Source: a virus (lineage: Duplodnaviria; Caudoviricetes). From it: 64,000 nt of DNA. Positions 22,587 through 57,817 of this stretch are shown here, in pieces. The stretch covers positions 32,001 through 96,000 of IMG/VR virus record IMGVR_UViG_3300032327_000953; one strand, given 5' to 3'. The position numbers and the translations under genes were made by a program. Below the pieces are notes generated by a model. That model had not been told where the DNA came from. It did not search any database and worked only from the letters and a program-made list of their open reading frames with translations. Each line of letters starts with the position of its first letter. The first letter of the stretch is position 1.

Positions 22587-25500
22587 CTATTTAGACCTTC
22601 TAGGTGTTGATATGCCGCCTTCATTATCCTTAGACAATTGACCAAATGCTTTATCTATTTCATCTAAAATCATAGTTTGCATTCTTTCTTCCATAGTACT
22701 AAATACAGCAGCACCATTAAGATGTACATTAACGTCATGTTGTCCAGTTATGCTAATAACAGGGGGCACATTAAGTTTTAATAGACTTTCTGTAAATTGG
22801 TCAAATTTAGTAGCAAAGTCACCCAAAGCGGTTAATGCGGCCTCATCAAGCTTGATATTTCCAATATTGAGTTGTGATAGTGCTTCTCCAAAAGCTTGTA
22901 CGCTAGTATCAAACTGTTTAATAGCGGCCAAAGTAGCACTATCAAATCCCATGCTATATGAATTAGATACACCACTAGCTGCGCCAACCTCAGCTCCACG
23001 ACTAAAATATCTGGGAGCTATAACTCCACCACGACTAGCATATGATGCTGCTGGTGTTCCTCCTCCTTGAACGGCTGCTGCTATTGCTCCTTGACTAGCA
23101 TTACCACTATTAATAGCTTCTAAAATTGGTAAGTATTTACCAGTAGATTCTCTATTGATCACATATTCACCAGGAGTTAGCATAGCAGGAACAGTATCTG
23201 TGCCTTTTGGAGTCCAATTTACTGGGGCCTTTCCTCCTGCCGCCCTATAAATTAATCCACCCTTTGCTCTGGTTACTGGTTCTTGTTCTCCGGCAACCTT
23301 CTTTACTTCTGATTCACTTGCTGACTGAGGCATTCCTACTTCTTGAGTACCAGCATTAGCTACTGCTTGATCTACTACAGAACCTGATGTTCCTGCTGCT
23401 TGTGTTTCTGGTTTTGGTTGAGAAGCATCTCTTTCCATTGCTGTTATAGTATTATTGGTCCCATGTTTTCTATTTTTCATATAATAAAAACCATATTTGG
23501 TACCTTGAGCTGATGGCATTTGTGCTTCATCATAAATCCTTTCAATAGGATCAAAAGGCACTGTTGTATCACTAGCAGCTTCTCCACTAAGTCCACCAGA
23601 AAACATCTCCCAACCTTTTTTGGCTGTGGGATATAAAGCTTTCATTTCTTGCCAATATTCTTGACCTTCTTTAGTAAAGACTCTTGGTAATGCTCCTGGC
23701 GCAAAATTATCACTGTAAAATTTATTAATTAATCCAACTACACCCTCTGCTTTATCTCTTTCCTTATAATCTCCAGAATTTAATCCAGGTATATTAGCTG
23801 TAGCAGTTGCTAAAAGTTCTTTGACTTTTGTCATAAATTCATCAGGATTATACAGGGCTCCTGCTAATGACTCTGCGCTAATCTCTGGTACTGGCATTCC
23901 AGCTGCTTGTATGGTACTTTTAACACCGCCGATCAATGATGGTAAAACTGCCTCTGGAAATAAGGTTTCTCCTTCTAAACCAACTGGTCTCATTAATAAT
24001 TCATCTCGTGCAGTTAAGAAGGCTTTTAATGAGGTAAGTTGATCTGAATATTCGGACCATAATGTTGACCATTCTTCAGTTCCTGGATCTCCGCTTTTTG
24101 CCCATTTTGTAGCATATCTGTCGCCAAGTTGTAATAATGTTCCTCCAAGAACTTCTCTATAATCTGGTTCGTAGACCGTTTCAAGGTTCATGAATTGATC
24201 TCTAACAGCATCAATATCTGTTGGGAGAGCAATATCAACTAGTTGATTACCGCTAGGACCACCAATACCTTTCATGACTGATGTTGTTCCACTCTTATCA
24301 GTAGAGATAGCTTTTTCACCACCCATAAATTGTTTGTATGTAGCAGCTATAGCTGTCGCTTGGTCCTGATTTAATTTAGCATCACCATTACCGCTAATTA
24401 ATTGATTAAATCTTTGAGCTCCTCTTTGTTGAGCAGCAAAGCCTAGAATGAAGTCTGCAAAATCGTCTTGTTTAATTATCTCTGGGATATTCCAGAATTT
24501 TCTTTTAGCTTCTGTTTGTTTACCTCTAGCGGTTCCATCTTTTTTCTTTACTGTAGCCAATGCAACATTTTCTGTAGTAGTCCATTTATCTAGTTCACTA
24601 CCATACTTACTATAGAGTCTTTCGCTAGCTTTGCTAGATATGGCGGCAGCTCCTTCTTCTCCTGCTGATATCTGACCCAAAAATCTTCCGGCACTCATAT
24701 ACTTGCCAAAAGCAGTCTCAGTAGTCATATTTTGAACTTCTGCTAATTTTTCTTTACTTTGACCTTGTGCTTTTTGAGTTACTGATAATACCTTACTTTT
24801 AATCCATGAGATATAATCTATGGCATCTAATAAATCTGTTTGATTCTTAATTTCTTCCGGTGGACTCATTCCATCTTCTGATGCTGCTTTCATCCAATCT
24901 GAAGATGTTTTTAAACCACTGATCATTGGGATATCAACTTTTTTGACATTCTGCCATACAGTATTACCAAGAGAAGGAATATGTTCTGGTTTGATAAGAA
25001 TCTGAGATGCTTCTTGCTGCATCTTCTTTCTTTTTTCGTCTTTGCTCATGGATGTATCTTGAATAGCAGCTAACTGCATAGCTTCAGAAATTAATGGTAA
25101 TTTGCTAATAATCAAATCTCTAGCATCACTATATGGAATATTTTCTCCTAATTTATAGTCATCGCTATAAAATAATGTATTAGCAGTCTTTAATAATGAC
25201 GCAGCTCCAGACTGTTCTTGAGCATCAGTCTTAACTCCCTCTCTACGACTAGTTCTAGCAGATCTTATGTCACTAGATGCTTTGAATGCTTTTTCTGCAA
25301 CTATTGGATTATACATAGTGGCTAGCTTTATTCCAGCCAAAGAAAAATCTGGAATATCAAAATTACTTACTGCCCATTTTTGCACAGCAGTATCCAGTGA
25401 TTCTTCATTGCTAAAGTATGGTAGTTCGCTATCTGCACTCTGATTTAAAGTTTGGAATGGACTCACTGCTTGAGTACCACGATCTACAGTTCTACCTCTA

Positions 25501-28500
25501 ATAAATAGACCCTTTGTAGCAACATCAGCCCCATCTGTTAAAAATGATTTCTTAGCTTTTGGATCATATTCTGTATCTTCAGGATTTAATAGTGGTATAG
25601 ATTCAAATTTCTGAAAATCAAAAAATACAGGAAGTTTTCTCTTGGATGATGGTAAATCAATCATTTTATTATAAGAAGTTTGGGGAGATATATTTAATCC
25701 AATCTTCTCTTGCATGATTTGTTCTTGAGCTTTTTCCATTTGTGCTTCTGCAACTGCCCCAATTAATCCAGTATCTGTTGTCCATGGAAGAGGTTCAAAT
25801 TTAGTGCTATCCGTACCTTGGAAAACTTTGAATCCTGTACTATTACCACCATCCCATATTTTTCCCTCTGCGGCTGCTTTTTTATTGGTTTCGCTAGAAA
25901 TAATTGATGCCCATCTGCTTCTAACAGCTTTCGTATAAACTGTAAGCATATCATTGGTTTCGCCAGATGATTCTTTTGGTTTTGCATCACCAACTGGTTT
26001 ATCTGTTGTAGAATAACCCCATTTAAATAAATCTTTTTTGTCATCAGCTAATTCTGATTTATTGAAAGAATATTTGAATTTAGTACCTTCAGCTAATGCA
26101 GTTAATATTGCGTTTGTCTTACTTAGTTTTTGTGCTGCTGGGGGTTTAGTTGTCCAGAATTTAGGATCATAACCACCAGCTTTATCCGTTGTGGTCAATG
26201 GTTTAGTTTCTGATAAGTCGTCGTAATAATCTCTAAATATCTTTTGTAAAACTGAGAAATCTTCAATATTTCCTTGGCCTGCTAGTGCTGCAGTATTGGA
26301 GAAGTCCAGCCCCTTTGCTTTATAAAAAGAGTTAGCTGCTTCTGATTTTTCATCTGAACCTAGTGTTGGATATCCACCTGGAGTAAATTGTAGTAGATTA
26401 TCTACTGAACTTAATTTTGGAAAATCTTCAATATTAAGATCACCAGCTGATTTAACAGAGCTGGCAAACATAAACTTTTGCCCATTCTCTTTAGATTCTG
26501 GACCAAAGCCATATTGTGAATATGCTGTGCCTCCAATAGTTACTTTTGCTTTTGGTGCTGTCTTAACTTTTTCCCATTTTGCCGCTTTGTCTAGAGCATT
26601 CATCCATGGAGTAATAGCATTAAATTGATCTTTAGCTTCATCTAATGTTAATGTATCTGCTCCTGTATTTATTGTATTTCCTAAAATAGTCTCATTTATC
26701 AACTTTGAAGGATACTTGAAATCAGACATTACCATAGACTCTTTAAGTTTATCCATAACAGTATTTGCGGCATTAGGAACTGCTCCGGTAGCAATAGCAT
26801 TACCGACTCCTCCAATAGCACCAATAGTACCTCCACCAACTGTTCCGGCAGCTGCTCCGGCAACCGTATTCCCGAATTTTCTTGCAACAATTTGCTGTCC
26901 AGTAGCACCCCAACCAATTTTTGATAATATTGATTCTGGAATTAAATATTTGATTAAGTCTACTGTTGGTCCTCTAACTTTATCGCTAATCCAATCGAAT
27001 AGCCTTTTACCTCCAGGAAATCTTTCAAATATTCCTGGAATAAAAGAACCCAACTTAGCAACCACTGATTTGGGCATAAATCTAGTCATCCATTTCAATG
27101 CACCAGCAACACCCTTACCGATAAAGCCTGCTCCTGGAATAGGAAGTAAATTAGTAATAGCTCCTAAACCTTCTAGTGCTCCTCCAATAAAATCTCTATC
27201 AACAAATATTTTCTTGACTGCATCGATACCAGAAACAACAGCACCTAAACCAGGAACAAATTTCATAGCTTCCCATATGTATCCAGCAGCATTAGCAGCT
27301 ATACCATCTTGTGCAAAACCCATGCTTGTCATGGCCGAATGAGCACTAGAGGTTGATCCGGTAAAATTACTAGCAACAGCTCCTGCCAATGCATCAGAAT
27401 TTCCTGTAGCAGATGCTCCAAGAGCGGCACCTTTAATAGCTCCTTTACCAGCACTATCAAGAGCATTAGATGCTACATTACGAGATAAAGTAAAATCGGG
27501 CAATACTCCAAAAATAGGTTCGTTGATTTGACCAGTAATTTTATCTAATAATGGATTACCCATTGAACTATATAGTTTATCAGAAGTTCCATTAAATGTT
27601 GGTATGGAGTATGGTTTAATAAACTGTATAAATCCTTCATCTGATTTTAACTTTTCCAAATTTGCTTTAACATCATTCTCTTTACCTCCAGGACCAAAAG
27701 TAGCATAATCATTAAATTTAGTATATAGCGTATTCTTAGCTGGGTCAGCATCTGCAAATCTTCCTTGATCTGGAGGCTTTAGCATGTCTGATACCCATCC
27801 ACCCTCAGAATAATATTTAACACTACCACCCTTAGAATATCCATTATTTATAGCATGTAATAGGGGACCATTAGCTGAGGCGGCACTCTTGTTAACAACA
27901 AATTCACCGGGCGTTAACATTGCCGGAACAGTATCTGAGCCTTTAGGTTTGAAAATTGAACCTCCAACTGCTCTATATTCTACAACTCCTCCTGTTGCCA
28001 TTCCTGGAATATCTGGGGTTTCTCTGGCACCACTAGATACTGTTGTAACCTTAGTGACTCCAGACTGTAAGTGGTTATTAAGTTTATTGATTCCTGCTGC
28101 TGTATCTTTAGCATTAGCATTAGCATTAGCTTGTTGTACTCCACTTAAAGAATTAGAAAAAGCAGTTTGTGCTTGTGTTCCAATTTGTTGTGCTAAAGTA
28201 CCATCAAGCATTGCTAGATAGTGATTAGCTTGAACCTGTAAAGCATTTGCTTCTTTGTATTGTTGTATAGCTTCTGCCATCTGAGGATCTTGTTCTGGAT
28301 TTCTCAAACCTTCCAAAACTTGATTAAACATGGGGCTCATTTCAACCCCAGATTCGGTCATCATTGATTCTAGCATATTGGCTTTGAGCTGATTTTGATT
28401 GTCTCCAAGATATGGCGCAAGCATCTTGAATGCTTCCATTGTGTCTCCGCGATCTTGAGCGGCAGCTTGATCAGCAGCTTCTTGAGCATCCTGCATACTT

Positions 28501-31500
28501 CCACCATTCTTTAAAGATTCATTATATGCTTCTTGAACTCTTATAGAATCCCACATATTATTGGCTTGACCATTCATATTACGGTCAAGACGCTCAAAAG
28601 ATTGATTAAGTTTAGCTTGTTCTTTTGGAGTTGATGTTACAAATCTTTCTAGTATGCCCAAACCAGCTTCATTCTTAGCTTTGATCTCTGACATTTTTGC
28701 TAATGCAGCATCAGCCACTTCTGTGCTTTCAGCTAATGATTTTAGTGCAGCATAGTTTTCTCTTAATTGCATTGTTGTACCAGAAAGTTGGCCAGTAAAT
28801 GCCATTAGATCTTTGGCACCCTTTGGTCCTCTTTGTGCAGCAGCGTCAACCGAGGCTTGTTGATTTTGTCTGGTCATTTCTAAACGACCAATATTATTCA
28901 TTATTTGTCTTGGATCAGACGTTCCTGCCTGACTCATTACCCCAGCATTAGCTGCACTCTTTGATGATTCAAAGGATATATTCTTACCCAAATTTTTTGC
29001 TAGGGTCATCTCTCCTCTAGTTCTGATATCGTCTGCTCTTCTCATTTTTTCATTAGAACTGATCTGTAATGCTACAGCCTCATTCATAGACTGGGCATAA
29101 TTATTTACTGACTGTTGATAAAATTCTAATGCTTTTAATGCGGCTTCTTGGGCTTTTTTAGTTGATTGAACAGTTTTACTAAATGCTGAAGCTTCTCCAA
29201 AGACTTGCTGATAGTTGATTTTATCTTCACCGCTCTTTTGAGATTCAGAAAGAGATGACGATATATCCTTAGATAAAGCTTTCTTTAAACCTTCATCAAT
29301 ATTTAGATTGCTTAAATCTTTCTCTATATTTTGGCTTATCCTAGCTTCAATTTTACCGCTACTAGCGCCTGGATCTTCTTGTATAGTTCTATTAATAGTG
29401 GATAATATTGTATTCTCTAAGTCTGGACCAAACTGTAATAATCCCTTCATATCATTAGCTTGTGGGCCAAAAAATTGAGACCCAACATCGGCAGCCTTTG
29501 ATCTTTCATCAGCACTGTACATATTAGGATTTTGCAGTACATTGGATGCGTCGATTCTCGTTGTTCCTATTTTAGCATCTCCAGTCATGGATGCTTTTAA
29601 TAAATCTGTCTGGTCTGCTAGCTTACTCATAGAATATGTAACAACATTAATACTTTGTTCCATATTGCCCAACATGCGCTCCAAACCATAAAGCATTTTG
29701 GAGCTTTCATTATTTGCTTCTTCGCTATTTTTATTTCTAATATGCTTAACTTCTTGATCTCTAACATTATTAGCAGCTACTAGACTCATTAGTTCTTGTT
29801 TTCTAACATCTCTCGCTTGCTGAGATAATGATAGATCAGCATCTATTGATCTTAATTGCTGTTCAGTTTCAGCATTGGAACGAGCTAAAACTTCTGCTTG
29901 CTGTTTCCAGTCTGGTGAATTCATAATATCTGAAGAAGATTCTCCCTTTCTAAATCTTTCTGATATTACTCTTTGTTGTAGTTCTGCTGGTTTTTTAAAT
30001 TTCTCAGCAGTTTCGGCTGCTTTTTGTGGAATTAATTCTCTTGTATATTGTTCTTGGGTTCGTCCAGTAGCGTCGGTCAAAGATCCAATATATGCCATCA
30101 TACCTTTTTTATCTAATATATCAGCTCTTTGAGCTCTGCTTTCTTGTCCACCTGCACCAAGAGCTAATCCTTCTCCAATAATATTAGTCATTGCCCATTT
30201 AGGATTAGTGCTAGTAATATCAGATTGAGTTCTAGCTTCTTTTGCGGCATTCATTATTGCTGTGTTGGCTATCTGTAACTGTCCAGCATTATCTATTGTA
30301 TTTCTACTATATGTATCTAAAGCTTGTTCAGCATATTTTAGATTGTTGTCAAAAGCTTTAATTGAAGCATCTAATTTATTTTGTCGTAGAGCATCTGTCA
30401 TATCAATGAACAATGATGCCATTGCATTTCCGGCTGTAACAGCAATACCCACCGGTCCTGCTAATGCTGATAGCGCTCCAGATACACCACTAACAATTTG
30501 TGGTAAATTACCAGCTAGTTTACCAACCAAGCCACCACCTTTGCCAAGACCAGAAGCTATTCTATTTAAGAATCCGCTAGCTGCAGAACTAGAGAATCCA
30601 GAAGCAAAACCCTCTACTTTACGACCAGCATCAATCAAATAGCTAGAAAAATTATCTAAGTATTTTTTCGTATTATCAGATAAAGCAAAATCGCTAAAAG
30701 TTTGTATAGCCCCATTTGCCGCTACAAATAGTGCGGTAGTATTTCCAATAGATCCAGATAAGCTTTGTAATGCTTTTCCAGCTAAATTACCAGTACCAAC
30801 AAAGCTAGCCAACATACTACTACCAAAAGCAAATGATGCTGATAATTTAGTAAAATTAGTTGTCATTGTGCTAATAGCATCAGCATTATCTTTAGCCACT
30901 TTAGAATAATCTGTTGTATCTGGTGCTGGCGCTCCACCTCTGGCTAGTGATTCTGCTGCTGGTTTAATATTTCCGGGAGTCAAAGTAGCTCCACCACGAA
31001 CCTTAGCTATTCTAGCAGTAGCTTCTGTTATTGCTGCTGTTTCTTCAGCTGTTGCTCCTACTAGTCTTTGTTGAGCTATTGCTTGTGCTGCTGCTTGACT
31101 AGCTGCATCTGCCCTAGCTTTAGCTTCTGATGCTGTTGCTCCAGCCAATCTTTCTGCTTGATATGTTTGAATCTTAACTGCTTTTGCGGCAGCTTCCATT
31201 TCCATCATGTATCGTTGAATTGCTGCTTCTGCATCTCCAGATAATGGATTTCCTGTTGGTGGTCCCGGAGGTATTGGTGGACTTCCTGATCCTCCAGCAC
31301 CAGATGGGGTCGGACCTGTGGGCATACCAAAAGCATCAGGAGTATCAAATGGACTATATGTATAAGGAGCCTTTTGCATTGATCCTGGATATCCTAAACC
31401 GCCACCAGAAGGCTTTGGTGCTGCTGCTGATGATCCTGCTAGACCTCCCAAAAGATCTTCTCTTGTAAGACCATTAAGTACCTTCAAGAAAGAATCTAAT

Positions 31501-34500
31501 TGTGCAGTATCTTTAGAGAGACTCTCTGCCATTGCTTTTGCACCAATTTCCACAAGTTCAAACGATGGAATATTATTGGCAACGCCATTTCTCTTTCCTC
31601 CACCGGTAGCCTCATATCCAACCATTCGTTGAACCATTTGCAGCATAACCTTGGGATCTTGCATTGGATTTCCAAGATGATACTTATCCGAACTTTGATC
31701 AGGATTCTTGCTCATGAATAATTGCTTGCCAATATCCCAATTAGCCCAACTCTGACTTTGACCAGCAGCACTAATTTGACCAGAAGGAGTCTTTACTCCG
31801 GTCATAACAGAAGAGAACATGTCTCTAAGCTGTTTAACCAATGCGTCTACCTGAGCAGGATCTTGATGAGCTAACTCTGCAGCATATTCTCTGCCTCTAC
31901 CGCTAATGGGAGTATCTTTACCAGACACATCGCTATAGTTCATTCTTTTTTCATAGAAGTCAATATCTCTTAAACTAAGATCTGGTTCTACTGGAGCAGA
32001 TGGTGTTGATGCCGCTACATTTAAAGGAGTTGGTTGACGACCACCAACAGCACTTCTCATCATGGTCATCAGATCTAATGCTTCAAATGGGGCTTTTCCT
32101 TCAGCTTCTCTTTCGGCATTTTTTCGTTTACGACCGAATGTTGCTTCTCTGCCAGTTTTAGCATCTGACACAGTATCTCTCATATTCTCGATATCATTAG
32201 AAGAATATCCACGAGAAGAGGCTATTTCTGATTGTCTAACTCTAGCTCTATCTAACTCGATATCTCCAAGAGCTTTATTTCCAGCACTTGTCATTGCTCT
32301 CATAGAATTTACAACATCATCACCTAAAGTAGCAAAATTACTTCTTACAACTTTTTGTATCTCAATTAGAGATTTTCTCATAGTTTCCCAAGAACTTGTA
32401 TCAATAGTTGGTAAATCTATTTTATCTACAGCACTACTGACTTCATCGCTAAAAGTTGCCATTACAGCAGCCATACTAGATCTAAATATAGACATTTCTG
32501 CAGGAGTCACCGCTTCTCCACCCATCTCGAATCTTTGTATTCCAACAGCTCCACCTTTATTATATCGTCCATATTTATTCATGGTATTTAATTTACCATA
32601 ACCAATCTTCTTAGCTTGTGCTTGTGGAACTACTAATTCTCCTGGAGTTAATAATGCTGGAACTTCTCCTCCGGAAGCAAACCCTTGAGATCCTCCTAGT
32701 CCTAATTTTGCAACACTACTCTTTCGTATAACAAAATCACCAGCAGTTAATGAAGCAGGGACGGTGTCTCTGTTTCCTGTTCCGGGAACAATACCGCCAC
32801 TAGCAAATTTGGGGGTACGAGCAGCAAAATAAGATAATGCCATTGCTCTAGAGTCTGGTTTAGCATCGGGTCTTACAACATCCGGACCTTTAATTAAATT
32901 AGGGCTTTTACTATAACCAGTTTGTAATACCCATGCTGGATCATCAGCTGGTGGCCACGTTTCTTTTTTTCCATATAATTTTGGATCTAATAGAGCTTCA
33001 TTATGTGTCCAGTCTTTTGGTTCTAAGGGGGTTTTTTTAACATCTCCCCTATTTTTGAAATAATATTCCCATACTTTTTTAGCATCACCACTAACTACTG
33101 ATCTGTCAGAAGTTAACATTGCTCCTTTTTCGGTGACTGCTTCCATCAATATGTCATAAAGTCTTGGGCCATATCCTTTGGTGGCACTAGATAAGCCAAC
33201 ATAATATAGATTATCTCTTAATTTATAAGCACTAGCATATCCTTGTCTACTATTCTCTTGTCCACTCTTTAGATATCCAGCACTAATCATTCCAGAATCT
33301 TCAGTAATACTAATTTTACCGTATTGTTTTTCTTTTTTCTGTTCAGCTTCAGCAACTCCACCCACAGCAAATCTTCTAACTCTGCCACCCAAGGCTAATT
33401 TAACAGCCTCTGCTCCACCAGTTAGATAACTTCCAATCTCTTCTCTAACTTTCTCTAAACTACTACCATCAATTGTTCTTTTAACTTCTGTTGGAATACC
33501 AGGGTCAATACCAGGAAAGAATTGGGCTGCACTACCTAAACCGTCAGGATAGTCTATGGCTCTGTTCTGTTTAGCGTCTGGTCTTACTGGAGCGCCTAAA
33601 ATAGCCAAAGCTTTTTCTATTATGGCACCCTCAATATTACCCTGACCCATTTTCTCATCTAGTTCTGATGTTGTAGATTGTGGTTCAATATATTGAAATC
33701 CTTTTTTACCAGCTTTATGAGCAGCTCTGATGTTATCTAAGTTATCATCAATAAGTTTTTCTTGTTGTTGTAAATTAGCAGCTTTTAATGATGCAATATT
33801 GCTACTAGCTCCACCACTAACACCAGTAACATCATCTTCAGAATAAGGTAAACCTAAACGCTGTAGTGTTGAGGCAAGAAGATCAGCCGTACTTTGTGGT
33901 CTGGCTGTTAGTATTCTGGTTCTTTTAATGAACGATGGGTCTTGGTCTATTAAGGATTTTAATTTATCTGCTAGTCTTGTTGTTCTTGCTTTTCCAAGAG
34001 CTGCTTTTACTGCATCTCTATTTGAATATTGTGGGATATCAGGCTTGCCAGCAGCATCAAGAATGTCTGCTCCCTCAACTAATGTTTTGTCAAAATCAAA
34101 AGCTAAGTTTTCGCCACCACCAAAAATATTTTTATTCTGTACATTCTCTGCAAATTTTTGAGCAAGTGCTGATGACTCCTTCTGCATTTGTCTTGCTTCT
34201 TCCAAATATGTGCTGCCAAAACCTCTGGCGGTAGCATAAACATCAGTGCCTCCAATATTCCATTCAAATTCTTTTTCATAATCCATTGGTAATAAACCAG
34301 CAATACCAAAATGAAGAGCCTTAGCTTGATACTCTTCTAATCTTTTAGCTTCTGCAGCATCTCTTATACCTTTTGCATCTAAAGCTTTATTGATAAAGTC
34401 TGCTGCTTGTTCTAAGCCTTTACCAGCTTTAATATTTCCTGCCTGTAATAGCGAGCTTAATGTTCTATCTCCACTACCAATACCAAGTATTCTTTTAACT

Positions 34501-37500
34501 CCAGCGGGACCACCCAATCCACCCAACTGTTCTAGTATAACATCCTGAATACTTTTACTTTTTTCTTGGGCCAATTGAGCAACTCTACCAACTGGCATTT
34601 GAGCTTGTGAGCTTTGACCCATAACTCTCATTGCCGGAACATTGCCCATAGTTGCTGGTGCAGAAAAGTCTAGAGCGTAGTTTTGTGGATCTTTTTGGGC
34701 TAATGCATCTAATAATTTATATGGGGTAAATCCAGTAGCAGATTTCATCTTTTGTTTTTTAGTTCTTAACTCTTTTAGAACTTCTACTTTAGCTGCATAT
34801 TCTGGATCTTCCTCTATTTTTTTGGAATCTATTCTTTTAATTCCAAGAGCTTCTATCTCTTTATCTATGTGGCTCATTTCCGCTTGAGCTTCTTTTTGAG
34901 CTTGTTCTATAAGAGATGGTAAAACACTAGCTCTATTTTGTATTTTTCCAATATTATTAGAAACGAGATCATATACGCCAGGAGATAATACTGATTGAAG
35001 TTTAGCCATATCTCCAGCTATAATTAAATCTCTAACCATTGTTCCACTAATGCCGCCAGTTCTTTCTATACTCTTAACGTCATATCCAGCTTGTTTATAT
35101 TTTGCTGTTTGATCTTCTGTTTTATCTGCAACAAAGGCTGTGCTACCTTTACCAGGAATTAATACTTGTCTTCTGTCGGAACCTTGTTGAGTGATATCAA
35201 AACCTTGAGGAACCTCAAAATCTCTTGGTTTGGGAAGTACAGTGGCACCCTTTGCTCCGAAACCAGCCTTAGCCAATAATACTCTAGCGTCTTGATCAAA
35301 TATGGCTGTGCGATAAGATGATGGATCTACGGCCTCATTAGCTCCAACTAATGCTATAAAATCTTCTGGAGGAATACCCATAGCAGCAGCAGCATCCATA
35401 ATCGATTCATGACCAGCTGTAGTTGGAGCAAATCCACCCCATGTGAAACCAATTCTCTTCTTAATAATATCTACTAATTCATTGCCACTCTTTCTTCTTA
35501 GTCTACCAGAACCGCTTCTTCCTAATACTGTAGATTTAGCTCCTAGCTTATCTGATAATAATGCCTCGCCAACAGCAGTATCTGTTGAAACGCCCATGGT
35601 AGTTCCAGGTTGACGACCCTCTAAACCGATCCCCGTAACATCTCTTGACCCTCTTTGATCTTTTACTCTGCTTCTTTCTGCACTAGTGGTTGAACTTAAT
35701 GTATATGCTCTATCAACATCTCCAAAGAAATCATCCATTTTAGTTTTACTTACACTACTAGTAAGAATTAATATTTCAGTAGCCCTATCAATATCTTCTG
35801 GACTAAGAATTGGAAATCTTTCTGTTTGTCTTAGTTTAGCGCTATCTGTGCCTTGACCACGAGCTAATGTTGTTTTACCGCTACCAGCAACGCCATATAT
35901 TGCTCTTAGTTTTTGAATATTAGCAGATTTTCGCGCATTAACAGCTAGCTTGGTAAGATAGTCTGAATAGATTCTTGGACCTTCAGATCCTGTTTCTTTC
36001 ATTCCTTTTTCTACAACAGCTTTATTAGCTTCATTGGCTATAACATCATAATCAATATATCCTACTTTTCTTTGAGCTACTCCACCTTTTTCAAATTTTT
36101 GAATTATACCGCCAAGATTTTTTTCTTCAAATCTACCTGTTAATAGTTTTTTCTCTTTTAGTTTTGCTACTAGATCAGGAGCCTTAAACATTGGCCTACC
36201 AAAAACATCATACTGATTAGTACCTTTAAATATCTTTGTTAAGTCATCTGAACTTTTACTGGAAGCCCACTCTGTTGTTAGATCTTTAGCCTGCTGGGCT
36301 TTCTTTTTTTCTTTTGCTGTATAGTTTTTAGCTCCTTTACCCTTAACTTCATATGTATCAGCACCAACCAAACGAGTTAAAGTTTTATATGGAGTAGCTG
36401 TTGGAGTAAAATCAACCCTTAAACTGTCTCCATCGTACACACTATCTAGTTCTACTTTAGAAACACCACCACCCTTTTTGAATTTCTGAACACCATTATT
36501 TATTTTATGAAGATTACTGGATCCAACAGCTCTTGCAGATTTTTTATTAACAACGAACTCGCCAGGAGTTAATAGTGCAGGAACGCTATCGGTATTACCT
36601 GATCCTGGAACGCTACCTCCCCTAGCAAATTTTCTAACTACTCCACCACGATTTAAGGTAGGGCCTCCACCACCAGGAGGTAAACTAGAAAGATTATTAT
36701 TCAGAGATGTAATCTCATTCAATAGTTGTGTCATAACACCATTGCCAAGATTATCTATTGAGGCAGTTAGTGGGTTAATAGCTGTGGTAAGATTATTTAA
36801 TGCTGTTGTTGTTTTATCAAGAGCAGCACTATTGTCAGTATATGAATCAGCTATCTTTTGGGATTTTGCGGCGGCTGCTTGATCCTGACCTCCAGCTGGG
36901 GATCCATTTGGTTTAACTTTTCTTAGTCCTCCAACGAAACCACCAACAAAACTAGTTAATGCTTTGGCTCCTTTGATAGCTCCAATAGCGGTAATAATTG
37001 GTAGTAATGGTTTAGCAACATCTGCAACTTTGATAAAGGTATTAGCTAGACTCAATCCAAGGCTAACTAATGTTTTAAAACTATCACTATTGCCAATATC
37101 TCTAATTAATGCAACAAAGGATTCTCTTGTTTTTGAAAATTGAACTGCTAATGATGCTTGTGCTTTCACAGCATCCATAGCTAATGATGATTGTCCTCTT
37201 TGAGCCACACCCAATGCTTGTTGAGCAGTAGCGAACTCTTGGATTAATGGCAGAACCTTGCCGATCTGTCTGAAACCACCAAGTTCTTCTACAATTCTGG
37301 AAAAGCTAGTATCTCTTGGATCTAGCTTACCCAATCCTTCGCTTAATAATTTAACTGCTTTATAAGCTCCTACGAATTTACCTTCAACATCAAGAAGATT
37401 AACACCATATTCTTTTAAGGCGTCAATGGTATCTTCTCTTTGAATTCTAGTAAAGATGGTTCTTAAACCGGTAGCAATAGTTTCTGCACTTTCACGAGTG

Positions 37501-38465
37501 GTAGCTCGTACGCTAGTAAATACCGCAATAAATTCATTTAGAGCATCTGTTCCTTGACTAACGCCTTTACTTGCAGCAGCAAACACACCACCGGTACGCT
37601 GAATAGCGGTAATAATATCACTAGCTTCAACAGCAAAACCAGCAGCAACAGCATTAATAGAACCTAATGCTTTATCTAAATCTTCTGTACTAATTTTGAA
37701 CTGACGCATTAATGCGATACTACCTTCGACCGTATCATTAAGGTTGTCGAATGATGGGGCCAAAGCTGTTAATGCCAATGCTTTAAGGGCTTGATCTGTT
37801 TCTCTGGCGCTAAAACCAGCTTGTGCTAATGTATCAGATATCTTAATAAGATCAGAAGAAGCAACTCCCAATCCTGTGGATAATCCAGTAATGGTATCTG
37901 TTATTCTACTAAGCTGATCATATGATTCGCCAGTAATCTGAGTTAATCTTACTAACTGTCTATCAAAATCAATAAACTCTTGAGTGGCCTTCGATACAGC
38001 ATTAAGTAGTCCAAAGATTGCTCCTGTGGCAAAATTAAATGCGGCAAAACGACGAACAGCAAGAGCAGACTGTCTACCAAATTCTTCCATCTCACTTCTT
38101 GCTTCTACTGTTCCTTTTTTCAATTTAGCCATCTGCTGAGTGGTGGCTTGTGCTGATGATACTATCTGGGACATGGAGGAGTTTGATCCATTAAGGGCTC
38201 CTCCAAGACTATTGATAGCACCAACCAAACTAGTGATATTGGTGGTTGTTGATGCAGAAGCTTGGGCTGTTATTTGTAGTTCTTTATTTAGACGGGCCAA
38301 AGCATTTGATGTATTAAGTATTGATCTTTCTGCTGATTTATCTAACTTAACTTTAACGGTAGCGTCTACGGTACCAATCTCTCTTCTAATAGCAGATGCT
38401 ATTTGTCTGAGATTACCTGGTCCTCTTAAATTAAGTTCAGCTGTAAGATTAAAACCTTTTGCCAT
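22587..38465 (-). CDS. Tail tape measure protein (5292 aa) with inserted enzymatic domains (SNase-like, P-loop kinase, HIGH nucleotidyltransferase, HAD phosphatase, GNAT)
   Basis: Lies after the tail tube and chaperone block. N-terminal Ala/Leu-rich TMP core (FDRQLVRLTQITG...SDTLAQAGFSA...INAVAAGFAV...ETIATGLRTIFTRI) and five DxVPAxLTxG(E/D) TMP motifs. Enzyme motifs are listed under findings. Confidence 0.92.
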   Translation of the reverse strand: MAKGFNLTAELNLRGPGNLRQIASAIRREIGTVDATVKVKLDKSAERSILNTSNALARLNKELQITAQASASTTTNITSLVGAINSLGGALNGSNSSMSQIVSSAQATTQQMAKLKKGTVEARSEMEEFGRQSALAVRRFAAFNFATGAIFGLLNAVSKATQEFIDFDRQLVRLTQITGESYDQLSRITDTITGLSTGLGVASSDLIKISDTLAQAGFSARETDQALKALALTALAPSFDNLNDTVEGSIALMRQFKISTEDLDKALGSINAVAAGFAVEASDIITAIQRTGGVFAAASKGVSQGTDALNEFIAVFTSVRATTRESAETIATGLRTIFTRIQREDTIDALKEYGVNLLDVEGKFVGAYKAVKLLSEGLGKLDPRDTSFSRIVEELGGFRQIGKVLPLIQEFATAQQALGVAQRGQSSLAMDAVKAQASLAVQFSKTRESFVALIRDIGNSDSFKTLVSLGLSLANTFIKVADVAKPLLPIITAIGAIKGAKALTSFVGGFVGGLRKVKPNGSPAGGQDQAAAAKSQKIADSYTDNSAALDKTTTALNNLTTAINPLTASIDNLGNGVMTQLLNEITSLNNNLSSLPPGGGGPTLNRGGVVRKFARGGSVPGSGNTDSVPALLTPGEFVVNKKSARAVGSSNLHKINNGVQKFKKGGGVSKVELDSVYDGDSLRVDFTPTATPYKTLTRLVGADTYEVKGKGAKNYTAKEKKKAQQAKDLTTEWASSKSSDDLTKIFKGTNQYDVFGRPMFKAPDLVAKLKEKKLLTGRFEEKNLGGIIQKFEKGGVAQRKVGYIDYDVIANEANKAVVEKGMKETGSEGPRIYSDYLTKLAVNARKSANIQKLRAIYGVAGSGKTTLARGQGTDSAKLRQTERFPILSPEDIDRATEILILTSSVSKTKMDDFFGDVDRAYTLSSTTSAERSRVKDQRGSRDVTGIGLEGRQPGTTMGVSTDTAVGEALLSDKLGAKSTVLGRSGSGRLRRKSGNELVDIIKKRIGFTWGGFAPTTAGHESIMDAAAAMGIPPEDFIALVGANEAVDPSSYRTAIFDQDARVLLAKAGFGAKGATVLPKPRDFEVPQGFDITQQGSDRRQVLIPGKGSTAFVADKTEDQTAKYKQAGYDVKSIERTGGISGTMVRDLIIAGDMAKLQSVLSPGVYDLVSNNIGKIQNRASVLPSLIEQAQKEAQAEMSHIDKEIEALGIKRIDSKKIEEDPEYAAKVEVLKELRTKKQKMKSATGFTPYKLLDALAQKDPQNYALDFSAPATMGNVPAMRVMGQSSQAQMPVGRVAQLAQEKSKSIQDVILEQLGGLGGPAGVKRILGIGSGDRTLSSLLQAGNIKAGKGLEQAADFINKALDAKGIRDAAEAKRLEEYQAKALHFGIAGLLPMDYEKEFEWNIGGTDVYATARGFGSTYLEEARQMQKESSALAQKFAENVQNKNIFGGGENLAFDFDKTLVEGADILDAAGKPDIPQYSNRDAVKAALGKARTTRLADKLKSLIDQDPSFIKRTRILTARPQSTADLLASTLQRLGLPYSEDDVTGVSGGASSNIASLKAANLQQQEKLIDDNLDNIRAAHKAGKKGFQYIEPQSTTSELDEKMGQGNIEGAIIEKALAILGAPVRPDAKQNRAIDYPDGLGSAAQFFPGIDPGIPTEVKRTIDGSSLEKVREEIGSYLTGGAEAVKLALGGRVRRFAVGGVAEAEQKKEKQYGKISITEDSGMISAGYLKSGQENSRQGYASAYKLRDNLYYVGLSSATKGYGPRLYDILMEAVTEKGAMLTSDRSVVSGDAKKVWEYYFKNRGDVKKTPLEPKDWTHNEALLDPKLYGKKETWPPADDPAWVLQTGYSKSPNLIKGPDVVRPDAKPDSRAMALSYFAARTPKFASGGIVPGTGNRDTVPASLTAGDFVIRKSSVAKLGLGGSQGFASGGEVPALLTPGELVVPQAQAKKIGYGKLNTMNKYGRYNKGGAVGIQRFEMGGEAVTPAEMSIFRSSMAAVMATFSDEVSSAVDKIDLPTIDTSSWETMRKSLIEIQKVVRSNFATLGDDVVNSMRAMTSAGNKALGDIELDRARVRQSEIASSRGYSSNDIENMRDTVSDAKTGREATFGRKRKNAEREAEGKAPFEALDLMTMMRSAVGGRQPTPLNVAASTPSAPVEPDLSLRDIDFYEKRMNYSDVSGKDTPISGRGREYAAELAHQDPAQVDALVKQLRDMFSSVMTGVKTPSGQISAAGQSQSWANWDIGKQLFMSKNPDQSSDKYHLGNPMQDPKVMLQMVQRMVGYEATGGGKRNGVANNIPSFELVEIGAKAMAESLSKDTAQLDSFLKVLNGLTREDLLGGLAGSSAAAPKPSGGGLGYPGSMQKAPYTYSPFDTPDAFGMPTGPTPSGAGGSGSPPIPPGPPTGNPLSGDAEAAIQRYMMEMEAAAKAVKIQTYQAERLAGATASEAKARADAASQAAAQAIAQQRLVGATAEETAAITEATARIAKVRGGATLTPGNIKPAAESLARGGAPAPDTTDYSKVAKDNADAISTMTTNFTKLSASFAFGSSMLASFVGTGNLAGKALQSLSGSIGNTTALFVAANGAIQTFSDFALSDNTKKYLDNFSSYLIDAGRKVEGFASGFSSSAASGFLNRIASGLGKGGGLVGKLAGNLPQIVSGVSGALSALAGPVGIAVTAGNAMASLFIDMTDALRQNKLDASIKAFDNNLKYAEQALDTYSRNTIDNAGQLQIANTAIMNAAKEARTQSDITSTNPKWAMTNIIGEGLALGAGGQESRAQRADILDKKGMMAYIGSLTDATGRTQEQYTRELIPQKAAETAEKFKKPAELQQRVISERFRKGESSSDIMNSPDWKQQAEVLARSNAETEQQLRSIDADLSLSQQARDVRKQELMSLVAANNVRDQEVKHIRNKNSEEANNESSKMLYGLERMLGNMEQSINVVTYSMSKLADQTDLLKASMTGDAKIGTTRIDASNVLQNPNMYSADERSKAADVGSQFFGPQANDMKGLLQFGPDLENTILSTINRTIQEDPGASSGKIEARISQNIEKDLSNLNIDEGLKKALSKDISSSLSESQKSGEDKINYQQVFGEASAFSKTVQSTKKAQEAALKALEFYQQSVNNYAQSMNEAVALQISSNEKMRRADDIRTRGEMTLAKNLGKNISFESSKSAANAGVMSQAGTSDPRQIMNNIGRLEMTRQNQQASVDAAAQRGPKGAKDLMAFTGQLSGTTMQLRENYAALKSLAESTEVADAALAKMSEIKAKNEAGLGILERFVTSTPKEQAKLNQSFERLDRNMNGQANNMWDSIRVQEAYNESLKNGGSMQDAQEAADQAAAQDRGDTMEAFKMLAPYLGDNQNQLKANMLESMMTESGVEMSPMFNQVLEGLRNPEQDPQMAEAIQQYKEANALQVQANHYLAMLDGTLAQQIGTQAQTAFSNSLSGVQQANANANAKDTAAGINKLNNHLQSGVTKVTTVSSGARETPDIPGMATGGVVEYRAVGGSIFKPKGSDTVPAMLTPGEFVVNKSAASANGPLLHAINNGYSKGGSVKYYSEGGWVSDMLKPPDQGRFADADPAKNTLYTKFNDYATFGPGGKENDVKANLEKLKSDEGFIQFIKPYSIPTFNGTSDKLYSSMGNPLLDKITGQINEPIFGVLPDFTLSRNVASNALDSAGKGAIKGAALGASATGNSDALAGAVASNFTGSTSSAHSAMTSMGFAQDGIAANAAGYIWEAMKFVPGLGAVVSGIDAVKKIFVDRDFIGGALEGLGAITNLLPIPGAGFIGKGVAGALKWMTRFMPKSVVAKLGSFIPGIFERFPGGKRLFDWISDKVRGPTVDLIKYLIPESILSKIGWGATGQQIVARKFGNTVAGAAAGTVGGGTIGAIGGVGNAIATGAVPNAANTVMDKLKESMVMSDFKYPSKLINETILGNTINTGADTLTLDEAKDQFNAITPWMNALDKAAKWEKVKTAPKAKVTIGGTAYSQYGFGPESKENGQKFMFASSVKSAGDLNIEDFPKLSSVDNLLQFTPGGYPTLGSDEKSEAANSFYKAKGLDFSNTAALAGQGNIEDFSVLQKIFRDYYDDLSETKPLTTTDKAGGYDPKFWTTKPPAAQKLSKTNAILTALAEGTKFKYSFNKSELADDKKDLFKWGYSTTDKPVGDAKPKESSGETNDMLTVYTKAVRSRWASIISSETNKKAAAEGKIWDGGNSTGFKVFQGTDSTKFEPLPWTTDTGLIGAVAEAQMEKAQEQIMQEKIGLNISPQTSYNKMIDLPSSKRKLPVFFDFQKFESIPLLNPEDTEYDPKAKKSFLTDGADVATKGLFIRGRTVDRGTQAVSPFQTLNQSADSELPYFSNEESLDTAVQKWAVSNFDIPDFSLAGIKLATMYNPIVAEKAFKASSDIRSARTSRREGVKTDAQEQSGAASLLKTANTLFYSDDYKLGENIPYSDARDLIISKLPLISEAMQLAAIQDTSMSKDEKRKKMQQEASQILIKPEHIPSLGNTVWQNVKKVDIPMISGLKTSSDWMKAASEDGMSPPEEIKNQTDLLDAIDYISWIKSKVLSVTQKAQGQSKEKLAEVQNMTTETAFGKYMSAGRFLGQISAGEEGAAAISSKASERLYSKYGSELDKWTTTENVALATVKKKDGTARGKQTEAKRKFWNIPEIIKQDDFADFILGFAAQQRGAQRFNQLISGNGDAKLNQDQATAIAATYKQFMGGEKAISTDKSGTTSVMKGIGGPSGNQLVDIALPTDIDAVRDQFMNLETVYEPDYREVLGGTLLQLGDRYATKWAKSGDPGTEEWSTLWSEYSDQLTSLKAFLTARDELLMRPVGLEGETLFPEAVLPSLIGGVKSTIQAAGMPVPEISAESLAGALYNPDEFMTKVKELLATATANIPGLNSGDYKERDKAEGVVGLINKFYSDNFAPGALPRVFTKEGQEYWQEMKALYPTAKKGWEMFSGGLSGEAASDTTVPFDPIERIYDEAQMPSAQGTKYGFYYMKNRKHGTNNTITAMERDASQPKPETQAAGTSGSVVDQAVANAGTQEVGMPQSASESEVKKVAGEQEPVTRAKGGLIYRAAGGKAPVNWTPKGTDTVPAMLTPGEYVINRESTGKYLPILEAINSGNASQGAIAAAVQGGGTPAASYASRGGVIAPRYFSRGAEVGAASGVSNSYSMGFDSATLAAIKQFDTSVQAFGEALSQLNIGNIKLDEAALTALGDFATKFDQFTESLLKLNVPPVISITGQHDVNVHLNGAAVFSTMEERMQTMILDEIDKAFGQLSKDNEGGISTPRRSK

Positions 38466-53429: not shown

Positions 53430-53432
53430 AGT

Positions 53433-57500: not shown

Positions 57501-57771
57501 ATCCCTGAATACCTTGAACTCCTTGAGTACCTTGCATTCCCTGTAATCCTTGAACCCCATGTGATCCTTGAAGTCCTTGTGATCCTTGAACACCTTGTGT
57601 ACCTTGAACTCCAGCGATTGGTAATAATGACCATTTAAGTTCACCATCTCCAATTTTTAGTATATTATTTGTTGTATCATATCCTGGCTCTCCAGCCTCT
57701 AATACTGGATCGACATCTATCCACTCAGCATATGAACCTTTGCGGAGCATGAAAATATTATTTGCAGGCAT
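54571..57771 (-). CDS. Collagen-like fibre protein (Gly-X-Y with Y mostly Gln) with an Mtd/hyaluronidase-like N-terminal domain
   Basis: [35 protein letters not shown], then roughly 290 Gly-X-Y triplets, and a C-terminal [17 protein letters not shown] domain. Start probably ATG 57771 (MPANN); the ORF track gives 57816. Confidence 0.88.
54800..57612 (-). repeat. Coding 9-nt-period collagen repeat with two copies of a 34-aa interruption
   Basis: Plus strand shows CCTTG/CCCTG every 9 nt; interruptions at about 55783-55884 and 55068-55170. Confidence 0.9.
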
Positions 57772-57811
57772 AATTGATCCATTTATAAAGGTGGTCAGGG
57801 ATATAGTAATA

Positions 57812-57817
57812 TACACT
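57812..57817 (-). promoter_or_regulatory. AGTGTA variant of the candidate late-promoter motif
   Basis: TAAGTGTATATTACTAT about 40 nt upstream of ATG 57771. Confidence 0.35.

What the first reader, a model, noticed from the sequence alone, without database searches (positions are those of the whole stretch)
32860..36465. Tape measure protein carries a polyvalent enzyme cargo (nuclease, kinase, nucleotidyltransferase, HAD phosphatase, GNAT)
Seen: residues about 670-1870 of the 5292-aa TMP are globular, not helical, and contain five catalytic signatures in a row. These are DGD...RLVGAD-x-x-E...D-x-x-GR (D678, SNase-like), GVAGSGKT (G858, Walker A), GGFAPTTAGH...ISGTMVR (H1019, HIGH/TxGH nucleotidyltransferase), FDFDKT...ILTAR...K...IDDN (D1457, HAD motifs I-IV) and KGYGPRLYD...SDR.VS..A..VW (K1763, GNAT-like). 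Established: TMPs are ejected into the cell during DNA delivery, and polyvalent multi-enzyme proteins are known in phages and conjugative elements. TMP-borne enzymes are usually peptidoglycan hydrolases. Inference: this TMP delivers a pre-made anti-defence or host-takeover toolkit at injection, before any phage gene is expressed.
Basis: partly seen in the sequence, partly recalled or inferred. Interest (0 to 1): 0.92.

Follow-up and report, generated by a model that had tools for sequence, protein, structure and literature searches.

The report
Tape measure protein carrying swappable enzymes
The only tail tape measure protein of a complete 238-kb uncultured jumbo phage has a 1,240-residue block of conserved nucleic-acid and nucleotide enzymes built into it, in linker-bounded cassettes that related phages swap, so the phage probably delivers ready-made enzymes into the host with its DNA.

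Summary
Window 22587-38465 (-) is one 5,292-aa ORF and the only PF10145 tape measure protein (TMP) in a complete 238,135-bp phage genome. All five motifs sit at the stated residues.

- **Confirmed folds (4):** staphylococcal-nuclease with its catalytic residues aligned; a P-loop domain rigidly packed onto a HIGH nucleotidyltransferase (NMNAT/PPAT-like, Z 14.5); a capless HAD phosphatase (T4 Pnkp-like, Z 11.9).
- **Not shown:** "kinase" (Walker A plus a zeta-toxin-like fold, Z 8.3). "GNAT" is also unconfirmed; that module resembles a "large polyvalent protein associated domain".
- **Possible sixth module:** a PD-(D/E)xK-like nuclease at aa 1608-1690.

The modules evolve under purifying selection (dN/dS 0.05-0.25). 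They are bounded by an [FYW]xxGG linker, and the whole block is bracketed by copies of a TMP C-terminal motif. More than 200 giant TMPs from metagenomes share this plan. Close relatives differ by whole cassettes, including ADP-ribosyltransferases, exchanged at the linkers.

Delivery at injection is inferred, not shown. The precedent is Thermus phage P23-45 gp96, a TMP fused to a virion RNA polymerase. This is therefore a new variant of a known kind. This scan has already flagged the same family in other genomes.

The parts
22587..38465 (-). Whole 5,292-aa tape measure protein ORF (P0001)
   Evidence: It is the only PF10145 match in the complete 238,135-bp genome.
36666..38465 (-). N-terminal TMP core, aa 1-600 (PF10145 region aa 190-385; TM-like segments near aa 140, 270 and 470-495)
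   Evidence: PF10145 E 2.6e-23; TMP PHROGs 4211, 28 and 167; hydrophobic segments.
36501..36647 (-). Long motif copy 1, aa 607-655 (GG..KFARGG..D.VPALLTPGEFVV), which opens the cargo block
   Evidence: The same motif lies near the C-terminus of ordinary TMP PHROG profiles.
36111..36452 (-). Staphylococcal-nuclease-like module, aa 672-785
   Evidence: Profile vs PDB thermonuclease E 3e-4, catalytic residues aligned. phrog_452 endonuclease E 1e-3.
35466..36059 (-). P-loop NTPase module, aa 803-1000 (Walker A 858-865); kinase-like but unproven
   Evidence: AF2 pLDDT 89; zeta toxin 6epg_B Z 8.3; only Walker-A-level sequence hits.
34866..35459 (-). HIGH-class nucleotidyltransferase module, aa 1003-1200 (TAGH 1016-1019, ISGTMVR 1139-1145), packed onto the P-loop domain
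   Evidence: NMNAT Z 14.5, PPAT Z 13.0, TmcAL Z 9.9; MJ0951 E 5e-6; pTM 0.84 for the two-domain model.
34134..34865 (-). Conserved connector, aa 1201-1444; fold unknown, not modelled
   Evidence: Found in relatives; dN/dS 0.12-0.18.
33666..34121 (-). Capless HAD phosphatase module, aa 1449-1600 (DFDKT 1457-1461, TAR 1520-1522, K1561, DD 1573-1574)
   Evidence: T4 Pnkp phosphatase Z 11.9, Pnkp1 Z 11.2, AphA Z 9.7-10.5. Atlas clusters T5 dNMPase / HAD_PNKP TM 0.70. Motif residues conserved.
33396..33644 (-). Small module 'mid2', aa 1608-1690; possible minimal PD-(D/E)xK nuclease (E1617, D1638, E1660-x-K1662). It is among the most widespread modules, in 107 of the 120 TMPs tabulated
   Evidence: Conservation. 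The named clusters shown by the language-model search belong to restriction-endonuclease-type families, scores 0.81-0.83, a lead only. dN/dS 0.07.
32826..33332 (-).
   Evidence: AFDB cluster hits E 1.8e-8 to 1e-7, including a 'Large polyvalent protein associated domain' protein. Weak GNAT leads. No Pfam, PDB or PHROG hit.
32586..32810 (-). Long motif copies 2 and 3, aa 1886-1960, which close the cargo block
   Evidence: 75% DNA identity over 81 nt to copy 1.
27898..27947 (-). Long motif copy 4 (aa ~3511)
23161..23210 (-). Long motif copy 5 (aa ~5090), the normal TMP C-terminal position

Best explanation
This is the phage's genuine, single tape measure protein, and it doubles as a carrier for a string of active enzymes. 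An ordinary TP901-type TMP core (aa 1-600) ends in the usual TMP C-terminal motif. That motif has been duplicated, and three cassettes sit between the copies, each bounded by a short [FYW]xxGG linker:
1. A staphylococcal-type nuclease.
2. One large multi-domain enzyme: P-loop NTPase, HIGH nucleotidyltransferase, connector, capless HAD phosphatase and a small PD-(D/E)xK-like domain.
3. An LPD-like domain.

Inferred mechanism: the few TMP copies per virion are expelled from the tail at infection, C-terminal membrane-inserting parts first. The N-proximal cargo follows just ahead of the DNA and reaches the cytoplasm. The ATP-using modules can only work there. The enzymes then act catalytically on host nucleic acids, RNA ends or nucleotide/NAD-type metabolites before any phage gene is expressed. 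Cassettes are exchanged between phages by recombination at the conserved linkers.
For: Shown:
- TMP identity, and the only TMP in a complete genome.
- Fold and catalytic-residue evidence for SNase, HIGH NTase and HAD.
- Confident two-domain P-loop/NTase model, pTM 0.84.
- dN/dS 0.05-0.25 in five modules against three related phages.
- The strict linker occurs 8 times against 0.46 expected. It lies at cassette edges in 74-100% of relatives against about 10% background for five of the six edges (62% downstream of SNase), and essentially never inside cassette 2: 0-3% at its internal junctions.
- Close relatives differ by whole cassettes with breakpoints at linkers.
- ART cassettes occur in 5 of 10 sampled inserts.
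- There are 59 recurrent segment families in 204 giant TMPs.
- LPD-like match.

Precedent: the TMP-fused RNA polymerase of P23-45 is in virions and transcribes pre-early genes (PMC10770324).

Inference: ATP-dependent folds need the cytoplasm. A cargo made only of enzymes fits delivery in very few copies.
Against: - There are no virion, processing, expression or activity data.
- The substrates are unknown.
- 'Kinase' and 'GNAT' are unproven.
- Several folded 15-45 kDa domains from several chains would not fit side by side in a tail-tube lumen, so storage must be unfolded or staggered. That is unexplained.
- No peptidase motif (HExxH) is present in this protein to separate the modules.
- No sheath or gp25 family was detected, so tail type is unknown.
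- All modules fall below Pfam gathering scores.
Confidence: 0.6

Rival explanations
1. The enzymes work in the producing cell late in infection, on nucleotide supply, nucleic-acid processing or virion modification. They are fused to the TMP only for co-expression. After assembly they are inert passengers or are clipped off.
For: The TMP is a late protein made in an ATP-rich cytoplasm. Nuclease, 3'-phosphatase and kinase sets serve nucleotide recycling in other phages (earlier scan notes, not tested here). The HAD module resembles T5 dNMPase clusters.
Against: - A TMP is needed in only a few copies per virion, a poor way to express metabolic enzymes.
- The cassette structure, ART cassettes and LPD-like domain match delivered-effector systems.
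- P23-45 shows that TMP-fused enzymes are delivered and used.
Confidence: 0.15
2. The cargo acts outside the cytoplasm, at the cell surface or in the periplasm during penetration. The nuclease would clear extracellular or biofilm DNA, and the HAD domain would act as an acid phosphatase like AphA or e(P4). This parallels the known peptidoglycan hydrolases in TMPs.
For: SNase is a secreted enzyme in staphylococci (textbook knowledge). AphA and class C acid phosphatases are among the HAD fold matches.
Against: The P-loop and HIGH nucleotidyltransferase folds need nucleoside triphosphates, which are not available outside the cytoplasm. They share one linker-free cassette with the HAD domain. The best HAD matches are the cytoplasmic T4 Pnkp type.
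Confidence: 0.1
3. The modules are decayed enzyme relics kept only as filler that sets tail length or packing. There is no catalysis.
For: All modules fall below Pfam gathering thresholds. TMP length does set tail length (established; quoted in PMC12619734).
Against: Catalytic residues are invariant across 12-58 divergent homologs. dN/dS is 0.05-0.25. The cargo is more conserved than the helical remainder between close relatives: 90% against 76% identity in P0004.
Confidence: 0.05

Closest known systems
Thermus phage P23-45 gp96 (also P74-26, G20c, TSP4): 5,002-aa TMP fused to a virion RNA polymerase (PMC10770324)
   Same: A giant TMP of about 5,000 residues carries a cytoplasm-acting enzyme in its N-terminal third. 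The enzyme is in virions and works before phage gene expression.
   Different: - gp96 carries one enzyme, a two-barrel RNA polymerase with a DFDGD motif. This protein has no D-x-D-x-D motif at all.
- Here there are several unrelated small enzymes in linker-bounded, swappable cassettes placed after the TMP core.
- Delivery and activity are untested here.
Polyvalent proteins of phages and conjugative elements (Iyer et al. 2017, PMC5512222)
   Same: Many unrelated effector domains sit on one large polypeptide presumed to enter with the DNA. ART domains are frequent. Cassette-like variability occurs. One module here matches a protein named for an LPD domain.
   Different: - That paper does not mention tape measure proteins.
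- A term search found no SNase or HAD domain there. Its kinases are Ser/Thr/Tyr-type and its NTases are Pol-beta-type.
- Later work by the same group describes head-packaged effectors fused to MuF or portal domains (PMC9503650).
- The separating metallopeptidase typical of polyvalent proteins is absent here.
TMPs with peptidoglycan-hydrolase motifs or domains (e.g. mycobacteriophage TM4; Piuri & Hatfull 2006, cited in PMC12619734)
   Same: An enzymatic activity is embedded in a tape measure protein and used during infection.
   Different: Those enzymes act on the cell wall. The folds here are nucleic-acid and nucleotide enzymes, two of which need NTPs. No wall-hydrolase family was detected.
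T4 polynucleotide kinase-phosphatase (Pnkp) and bacterial Pnkp1
   Same: A P-loop domain plus a capless DxDxT HAD phosphatase on one chain. The HAD module's best structural matches are T4 Pnkp (Z 11.9) and Pnkp1 (Z 11.2).
   Different: hhalign against T4 Pnkp aligns only the Walker A and DxDxT motifs, probability 47% and 10%. A HIGH nucleotidyltransferase and a 245-aa connector lie between the two domains. No ligase partner was seen.
NadR and other NMN/NaMN adenylyltransferases; TmcAL and citrate-lyase-ligase-type HIGH enzymes
   Same: The NTase module's best fold matches are NMNAT/NaMNAT (Z 11-14.5), with NadR at Z 10.3. The best sequence-profile match is the TmcAL homolog MJ0951. Atlas and AFDB matches include citrate lyase ligases.
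   Different: Domain order is the reverse of NadR. The motif is TxGH, as I recall it is in PPAT. The substrate cannot be assigned from the fold.
Sle1-type effectors of actinobacterial contractile injection systems (PMC13277306)
   Same: TMP-related proteins serve as a reconfigurable platform with exchangeable functional domains that are ejected from a tail-like tube.
   Different: Those are cargo of a bacterial nanomachine, not the ruler of an infectious phage. No sequence relationship was tested.

Membership tests
TP901-type phage tail tape measure protein (PF10145) | Match to the family profile above the curated cut-off | tested here: met
   83.4 bits against a cut-off of 33.2, E 2.6e-23, aa 190-385. 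It is the single match in the complete genome. TMP PHROGs match.
TP901-type phage tail tape measure protein (PF10145) | Sets tail length and is present in the tail lumen | not testable with these tools
   Needs virion imaging and proteomics.
Staphylococcal nuclease (thermonuclease) superfamily | Sequence-profile similarity over the whole domain | tested here: met
   Profile of 12 homologs against PDB: thermonuclease E 3e-4, profile positions 15-115. The query alone is below Pfam's threshold. Relative P0073 carries PF00565.
Staphylococcal nuclease (thermonuclease) superfamily | Ca-binding and catalytic residues (SNase D21, R35, D40, E43, R87) | tested here: met
   DGD, R..D..E and GR are invariant in 12 homologs and align to DGDT, RLLLVDTPE and YGR. 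The SNase residue numbers are from my own knowledge.
HIGH (HUP-class) nucleotidyltransferases, cytidylyltransferase-like | (H/T)xGH motif and C-terminal ISxT/xxR motif | tested here: met
   TAGH 1016-1019 and ISGTMVR 1139-1145. H, S, T and R are invariant in 53 homologs.
HIGH (HUP-class) nucleotidyltransferases, cytidylyltransferase-like | Fold | tested here: met
   NMNAT 1f9a Z 14.5, rmsd 2.5, 153 aligned; PPAT Z 13.0. Foldseek E 2e-6. The Pfam PF01467 score is only 15.7 against a cut-off of 21.
HAD phosphatase superfamily | Motifs I-IV (DxDxT, S/T, K, DD) | tested here: met
   D1457, D1459 and D1574 are invariant and T1461, K1561 and D1573 nearly invariant in 44 homologs. Motif II rests on T1520 of the ILTAR motif, next to invariant A1521 and R1522; its own conservation was not scored.
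HAD phosphatase superfamily | Fold | tested here: met
   T4 Pnkp phosphatase Z 11.9, Pnkp1 Z 11.2, AphA Z 9.7-10.5. Foldseek E 3e-5.
P-loop kinases (zeta toxin / PNK / NMP-kinase type) | Walker A | tested here: met
   GVAGSGKT 858-865. The first Gly of the motif and its G-K pair are invariant in 56 homologs.
P-loop kinases (zeta toxin / PNK / NMP-kinase type) | Kinase-type fold with catalytic base and lid arginines | tested here: inconclusive
   One match, zeta toxin 6epg_B, Z 8.3, which is in the 'middling' range. Invariant D and R residues exist but were not mapped. hhalign to T4 Pnk aligns only Walker A.
GNAT acetyltransferases | Family profile match or GNAT fold match | tested here: inconclusive
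   No Pfam, PHROG or PDB-sequence hit. No GNAT appeared among the PDB fold rows, which the HAD domain filled. Weak leads: language-model neighbours carry PF00583, and one Atlas cluster has PF00583 in 15% of members, TM 0.49. The strand-GxG-helix arrangement is GNAT-like.
Polyvalent proteins (Iyer et al. 2017) | Several unrelated effector-type domains on one polypeptide tied to the DNA-delivery apparatus | tested here: met
   Four or more unrelated enzyme folds inside the TMP. LPD-like match. ART cassettes in relatives.
Polyvalent proteins (Iyer et al. 2017) | Processing metallopeptidase that separates the units | tested here: not met
   No HExxH motif in P0001 and no peptidase family hit.
TMP-fused virion RNA polymerase (P23-45 gp96 type) | Two-barrel RNAP with a DxDxD metal motif | tested here: not met
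   No D-x-D-x-D anywhere in the 5,292 residues.
T4 Pnkp family | Detectable sequence homology of kinase and phosphatase domains | tested here: not met
   hhalign aligns only 20 and 15 columns, probability 47% and 10%. The resemblance is at fold level only.

The most novel reading that the evidence does not exclude
A widespread lineage of uncultured jumbo phages uses its tape measure protein as a programmable effector-delivery polyprotein. Dozens of cassette families are exchanged by recombination at an [FYW]xxGG punctuation signal. That signal may also mark where the protein folds, hinges or is cut after ejection. The conserved P-loop / nucleotidyltransferase / HAD / PD-(D/E)xK cassette would be a pre-made RNA-end-repair or NAD/nucleotide-restoring machine that disarms abortive-infection defences before the first phage transcript is made.
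Probability: 0.3. Interest if true: 0.85.

Novelty: new variant of a known kind. Interest (0 to 1): 0.62.

Why it matters
TMPs are usually treated as rulers and channel formers that at most carry a cell-wall hydrolase. The single known exception is the RNA polymerase fused to the P23-45 TMP.

This family would show that the tail lumen is a general route for protein delivery. It comprises more than 200 giant TMPs with dozens of recurrent, linker-bounded cassettes. The cargo repertoire (SNase, P-loop/HIGH-NTase, Pnkp-like HAD, ART, LPD-like) is largely different from that of head-packaged polyvalent proteins.

It offers:
- a testable system for how folded enzymes are stored in and expelled from a tail tube;
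- a catalogue of candidate first-minute counter-defence enzymes;
- a natural design for loading proteins into phage-derived injection devices.

No cultured phage in GenBank carries these modules, so the biology is so far visible only in metagenomes.

Tried and rejected
**Searches that found nothing**
- DNA (megablast) and protein (tblastn) searches of 50,697 GenBank phage records: no match.
- Pattern scan of GTDB genomes with the P-loop/NTase alignment: no relatives.
- A 5.8-billion-protein search with the 'GNAT-like' profile: only 8 short hits, none annotated as GNAT.

**Searches that gave only sub-threshold or motif-level hits**
- Pfam, NCBIfam and PHROG scans of single modules and of all alignment members.
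- PDB sequence-profile searches for the P-loop, HAD and GNAT-like modules.

**Limits of the fold searches**
- The two-domain models were dominated by the NTase and HAD domains. The P-loop and GNAT-like domains were poorly sampled in PDB.

**Readings rejected**
- T4 Pnkp family membership: hhalign aligns motifs only.
- RNA polymerase cargo: no DxDxD.
- Assembly chimera: the same collinear architecture recurs in over 100 independent ENA, JGI, NCBI and Logan assemblies, and the genome is complete with terminal repeats.

**Could not be done or was uninformative**
- Neighbouring genes gave almost no family hits, and no sheath or gp25 was found, so tail type is unknown.
- dN/dS for the SNase module was not usable, because the three fetched relatives lack an orthologous SNase.

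Full report
**1. What is there**

Window 22587-38465 (minus strand) is a single uninterrupted ORF of 5,292 codons. Residues 190-385 match the TP901-type tape measure family PF10145 (E 2.6e-23, 83 bits against a cut-off of 33), and residues 30-580 match several TMP PHROGs.

The window is bases 32001-96000 of a 238,135-bp IMG/VR virus record. That record has direct terminal repeats and is rated 100% complete. This ORF is its only PF10145 match. No sheath or gp25 family was detected, so the tail type is open. The surrounding late-region genes are almost all without family hits.

**2. The five signatures**

I collected over 200 homologs, aligned each module and predicted two structures from those alignments:
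- aa 800-1200: pLDDT 89, pTM 0.84.
- aa 1445-1895: pLDDT 84.

*Nuclease.* A 12-sequence profile hits thermonuclease chains in PDB at E 3e-4 across the domain. The invariant DGD, R..D..E and GR align with SNase DGDT, RLLLVDTPE and YGR, the metal-binding and catalytic residues.

*Nucleotidyltransferase.*
- The 50 Foldseek rows shown are all HIGH-class nucleotidyltransferases: PPAT, NMNAT, NadM, FAD synthetase and a phosphoethanolamine cytidylyltransferase.
- An exhaustive structural search gives NMNAT Z 14.5, NaMNAT Z 13.3, PPAT Z 13.0, NadR Z 10.3 and TmcAL Z 9.9.
- The sequence profile hits the TmcAL homolog MJ0951 at 5e-6.
- Atlas and AFDB neighbours include citrate lyase ligases and viral cytidylyltransferase-like proteins.
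- The fold class is secure. The substrate is not.

*HAD.*
- The motif residues are invariant (D1457, D1459, D1574) or nearly invariant (T1461, K1561, D1573) in 44 homologs, and motif II sits in the conserved ILTAR segment.
- The best structural matches are the capless phosphatase domains of T4 Pnkp (Z 11.9) and Pnkp1 (Z 11.2), with AphA chains at Z 9.7-10.5.
- Atlas neighbours are T5 5'-deoxynucleotidase / HAD_PNKP clusters, TM 0.70.
- hhalign against T4 Pnkp aligns only the DxDxT motif. This is a fold-level resemblance, not family membership.

*P-loop.* Walker A is invariant and the domain packs confidently against the NTase. Beyond Walker A, the only evidence for a kinase is one match to zeta toxin at Z 8.3. 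'Kinase' is plausible but unproven.

*'GNAT'.*
- There is no Pfam, PHROG or PDB-sequence hit.
- The best fold matches (E 1.8e-8 to 1e-7, 21-23% identity) are small uncharacterised proteins and one annotated 'Large polyvalent protein associated domain'.
- GNAT families appear only among language-model neighbours and in one weak Atlas row.
- I call it LPD-like, with a GNAT-like strand-GxG-helix arrangement and unknown activity.

*A sixth module.* Residues 1608-1690 are among the most widespread modules, present in 107 of the 120 TMPs in the module table. They have invariant D1638, K1662, R1663 and T1664, arranged as E...D...ExK. The named clusters shown among their language-model neighbours belong to restriction-endonuclease-type families, at scores of 0.81-0.83 that count only as a lead.

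**3. Anatomy beyond the finding**

*Long motif.* A motif (GG..D.VPAxLTPGEFVV) occurs five times, at aa 626, 1900, 1935, 3511 and 5090. In ordinary TMP profiles it lies near the C-terminus. Here copies 1 and 2/3 bracket exactly the cargo block. The architecture therefore reads as an ordinary TMP core whose C-terminal motif was duplicated, with cargo inserted between the copies.

*Short linker.* A linker [FYW]xxGG (KFARGG, KFKKGG, KFEKGG, RFAVGG, KFASGG, RFEMGG and others) occurs 8 times in its strict form, against 0.46 expected from shuffles. Its frequency at module edges across relatives:

| Position | Relatives with linker |
|---|---|
| Upstream of SNase | 100% |
| Downstream of SNase | 62% |
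| Upstream of the P-loop/NTase unit | 83% |
| Downstream of the small module | 74% |
| Either side of the LPD-like module | about 80% |
| Background | about 10% |
| Junctions inside the P-loop-to-small-module block | 0-3% |

The units are therefore three cassettes: SNase, one large multi-domain enzyme, and the LPD-like domain.

**4. Evolution**

- Module presence varies independently across 120 giant TMPs of 3,000-7,700 aa from contigs up to 248 kb.
- P0002 (84% identical in aa 1-770) has a 485-aa insert between SNase and the P-loop, flanked by linkers. The insert contains an ADP-ribosyltransferase domain.
- P0008 replaces the LPD-like cassette with about 940 aa of other sequence, resuming at the KFASGG linker.
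- ART domains were found in 5 of 10 sampled inserts and in one further cassette family.
- Cutting 204 giant TMPs at the linker gives 59 recurrent segment families.
- dN/dS against three related IMG/VR phages is 0.05-0.25 for the P-loop, NTase, connector, HAD and small module.
- The cargo is more conserved than the helical remainder.
- No homolog exists in 50,697 GenBank phage records, and none was found in GTDB genomes by a pattern scan.
- An assembly chimera is excluded by the many independent assemblies that share the architecture.

**5. Mechanism**

*Shown:* a genuine sole TMP carries several selected, catalytically intact enzyme folds in swappable cassettes.

*Established elsewhere:* TMPs are held in the tail tube and expelled into the envelope at infection. 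In P23-45 a TMP-fused RNA polymerase is virion-borne and transcribes pre-early genes (PMC10770324).

*Inferred:*
- The cargo follows the membrane-inserting C-terminal parts into the cell, ahead of the DNA.
- The NTP-dependent modules can act only in the cytoplasm.
- Only enzymes, not stoichiometric inhibitors, make sense at a few copies per virion.

What the enzymes do is open. Three candidates fit the evidence:
- Host nucleic-acid breakdown plus nucleotide reprocessing. SNase leaves 3'-phosphates (my knowledge), which a Pnkp-like phosphatase could remove.
- RNA end-healing.
- NAD- or CoA-type adenylyl transfer.

I put about 0.6 on delivery as early-acting effectors. Rivals are late-cell function (0.15), extracytoplasmic action (0.1) and inert filler (0.05).

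**6. Novelty**

The polyvalent-protein paper does not mention tape measure proteins, and a term search found no SNase or HAD domain in it. Literature searches found no description of TMP-borne non-wall enzymes other than P23-45 gp96 and the TMP-related CIS effector Sle1.

This is a new variant of a known kind. The same family has already been flagged by this scan in other genomes.

Noticed in passing
It is among the most widespread modules in the family and has an E...D...ExK pattern. The named clusters shown among its language-model neighbours are restriction-endonuclease-type families. It may be a second, minimal nuclease.
   Followed up: partly
window 22587-27947 (-), aa ~3511-5292 of the TMP: A second stretch (aa 3550-5090) is also bracketed by the long D.VPAxLTPGEFVV motif. 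It contains Gly-rich hydrophobic runs and about 1,500 residues with no family hit. Its segments are shared with only 7-12 relatives, so it may be a second, more variable cargo or receptor-proximal compartment.
   Followed up: partly
window 54571-57816 (-): A 1,081-aa collagen-like tail fibre protein with very strong PHROG matches (E 7e-200). It lies in a local G+C peak of 0.43-0.44, against about 0.35 for the window.
   Followed up: no
window 1-22573 (-): Downstream of the TMP lie three further giant ORFs (2,465 aa, 1,467 aa and an open-ended ORF of at least 2,207 aa). They have almost no family hits and are presumably distal tail or baseplate proteins.
   Followed up: no
window 52302-54569 (-): Two adjacent paralogous ORFs (375 and 378 aa) match the virginiamycin B lyase beta-propeller family (E 1e-13 and 5e-11) inside the structural gene block.
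   Followed up: no
window 44578-45522 (-) and 57859-59841 (-): An RgpF-like rhamnan synthesis protein and a glucosyltransferase are encoded among the virion genes. This hints at glycosylation of virion parts or of the host surface.
   Followed up: no
relatives P0007 and P0013 (7,512 and 7,279 aa): Some giant TMPs of the family carry EF-hand domains (PF13202, PF00036) according to precomputed Pfam hits. That would be another unusual cargo type.
   Followed up: no
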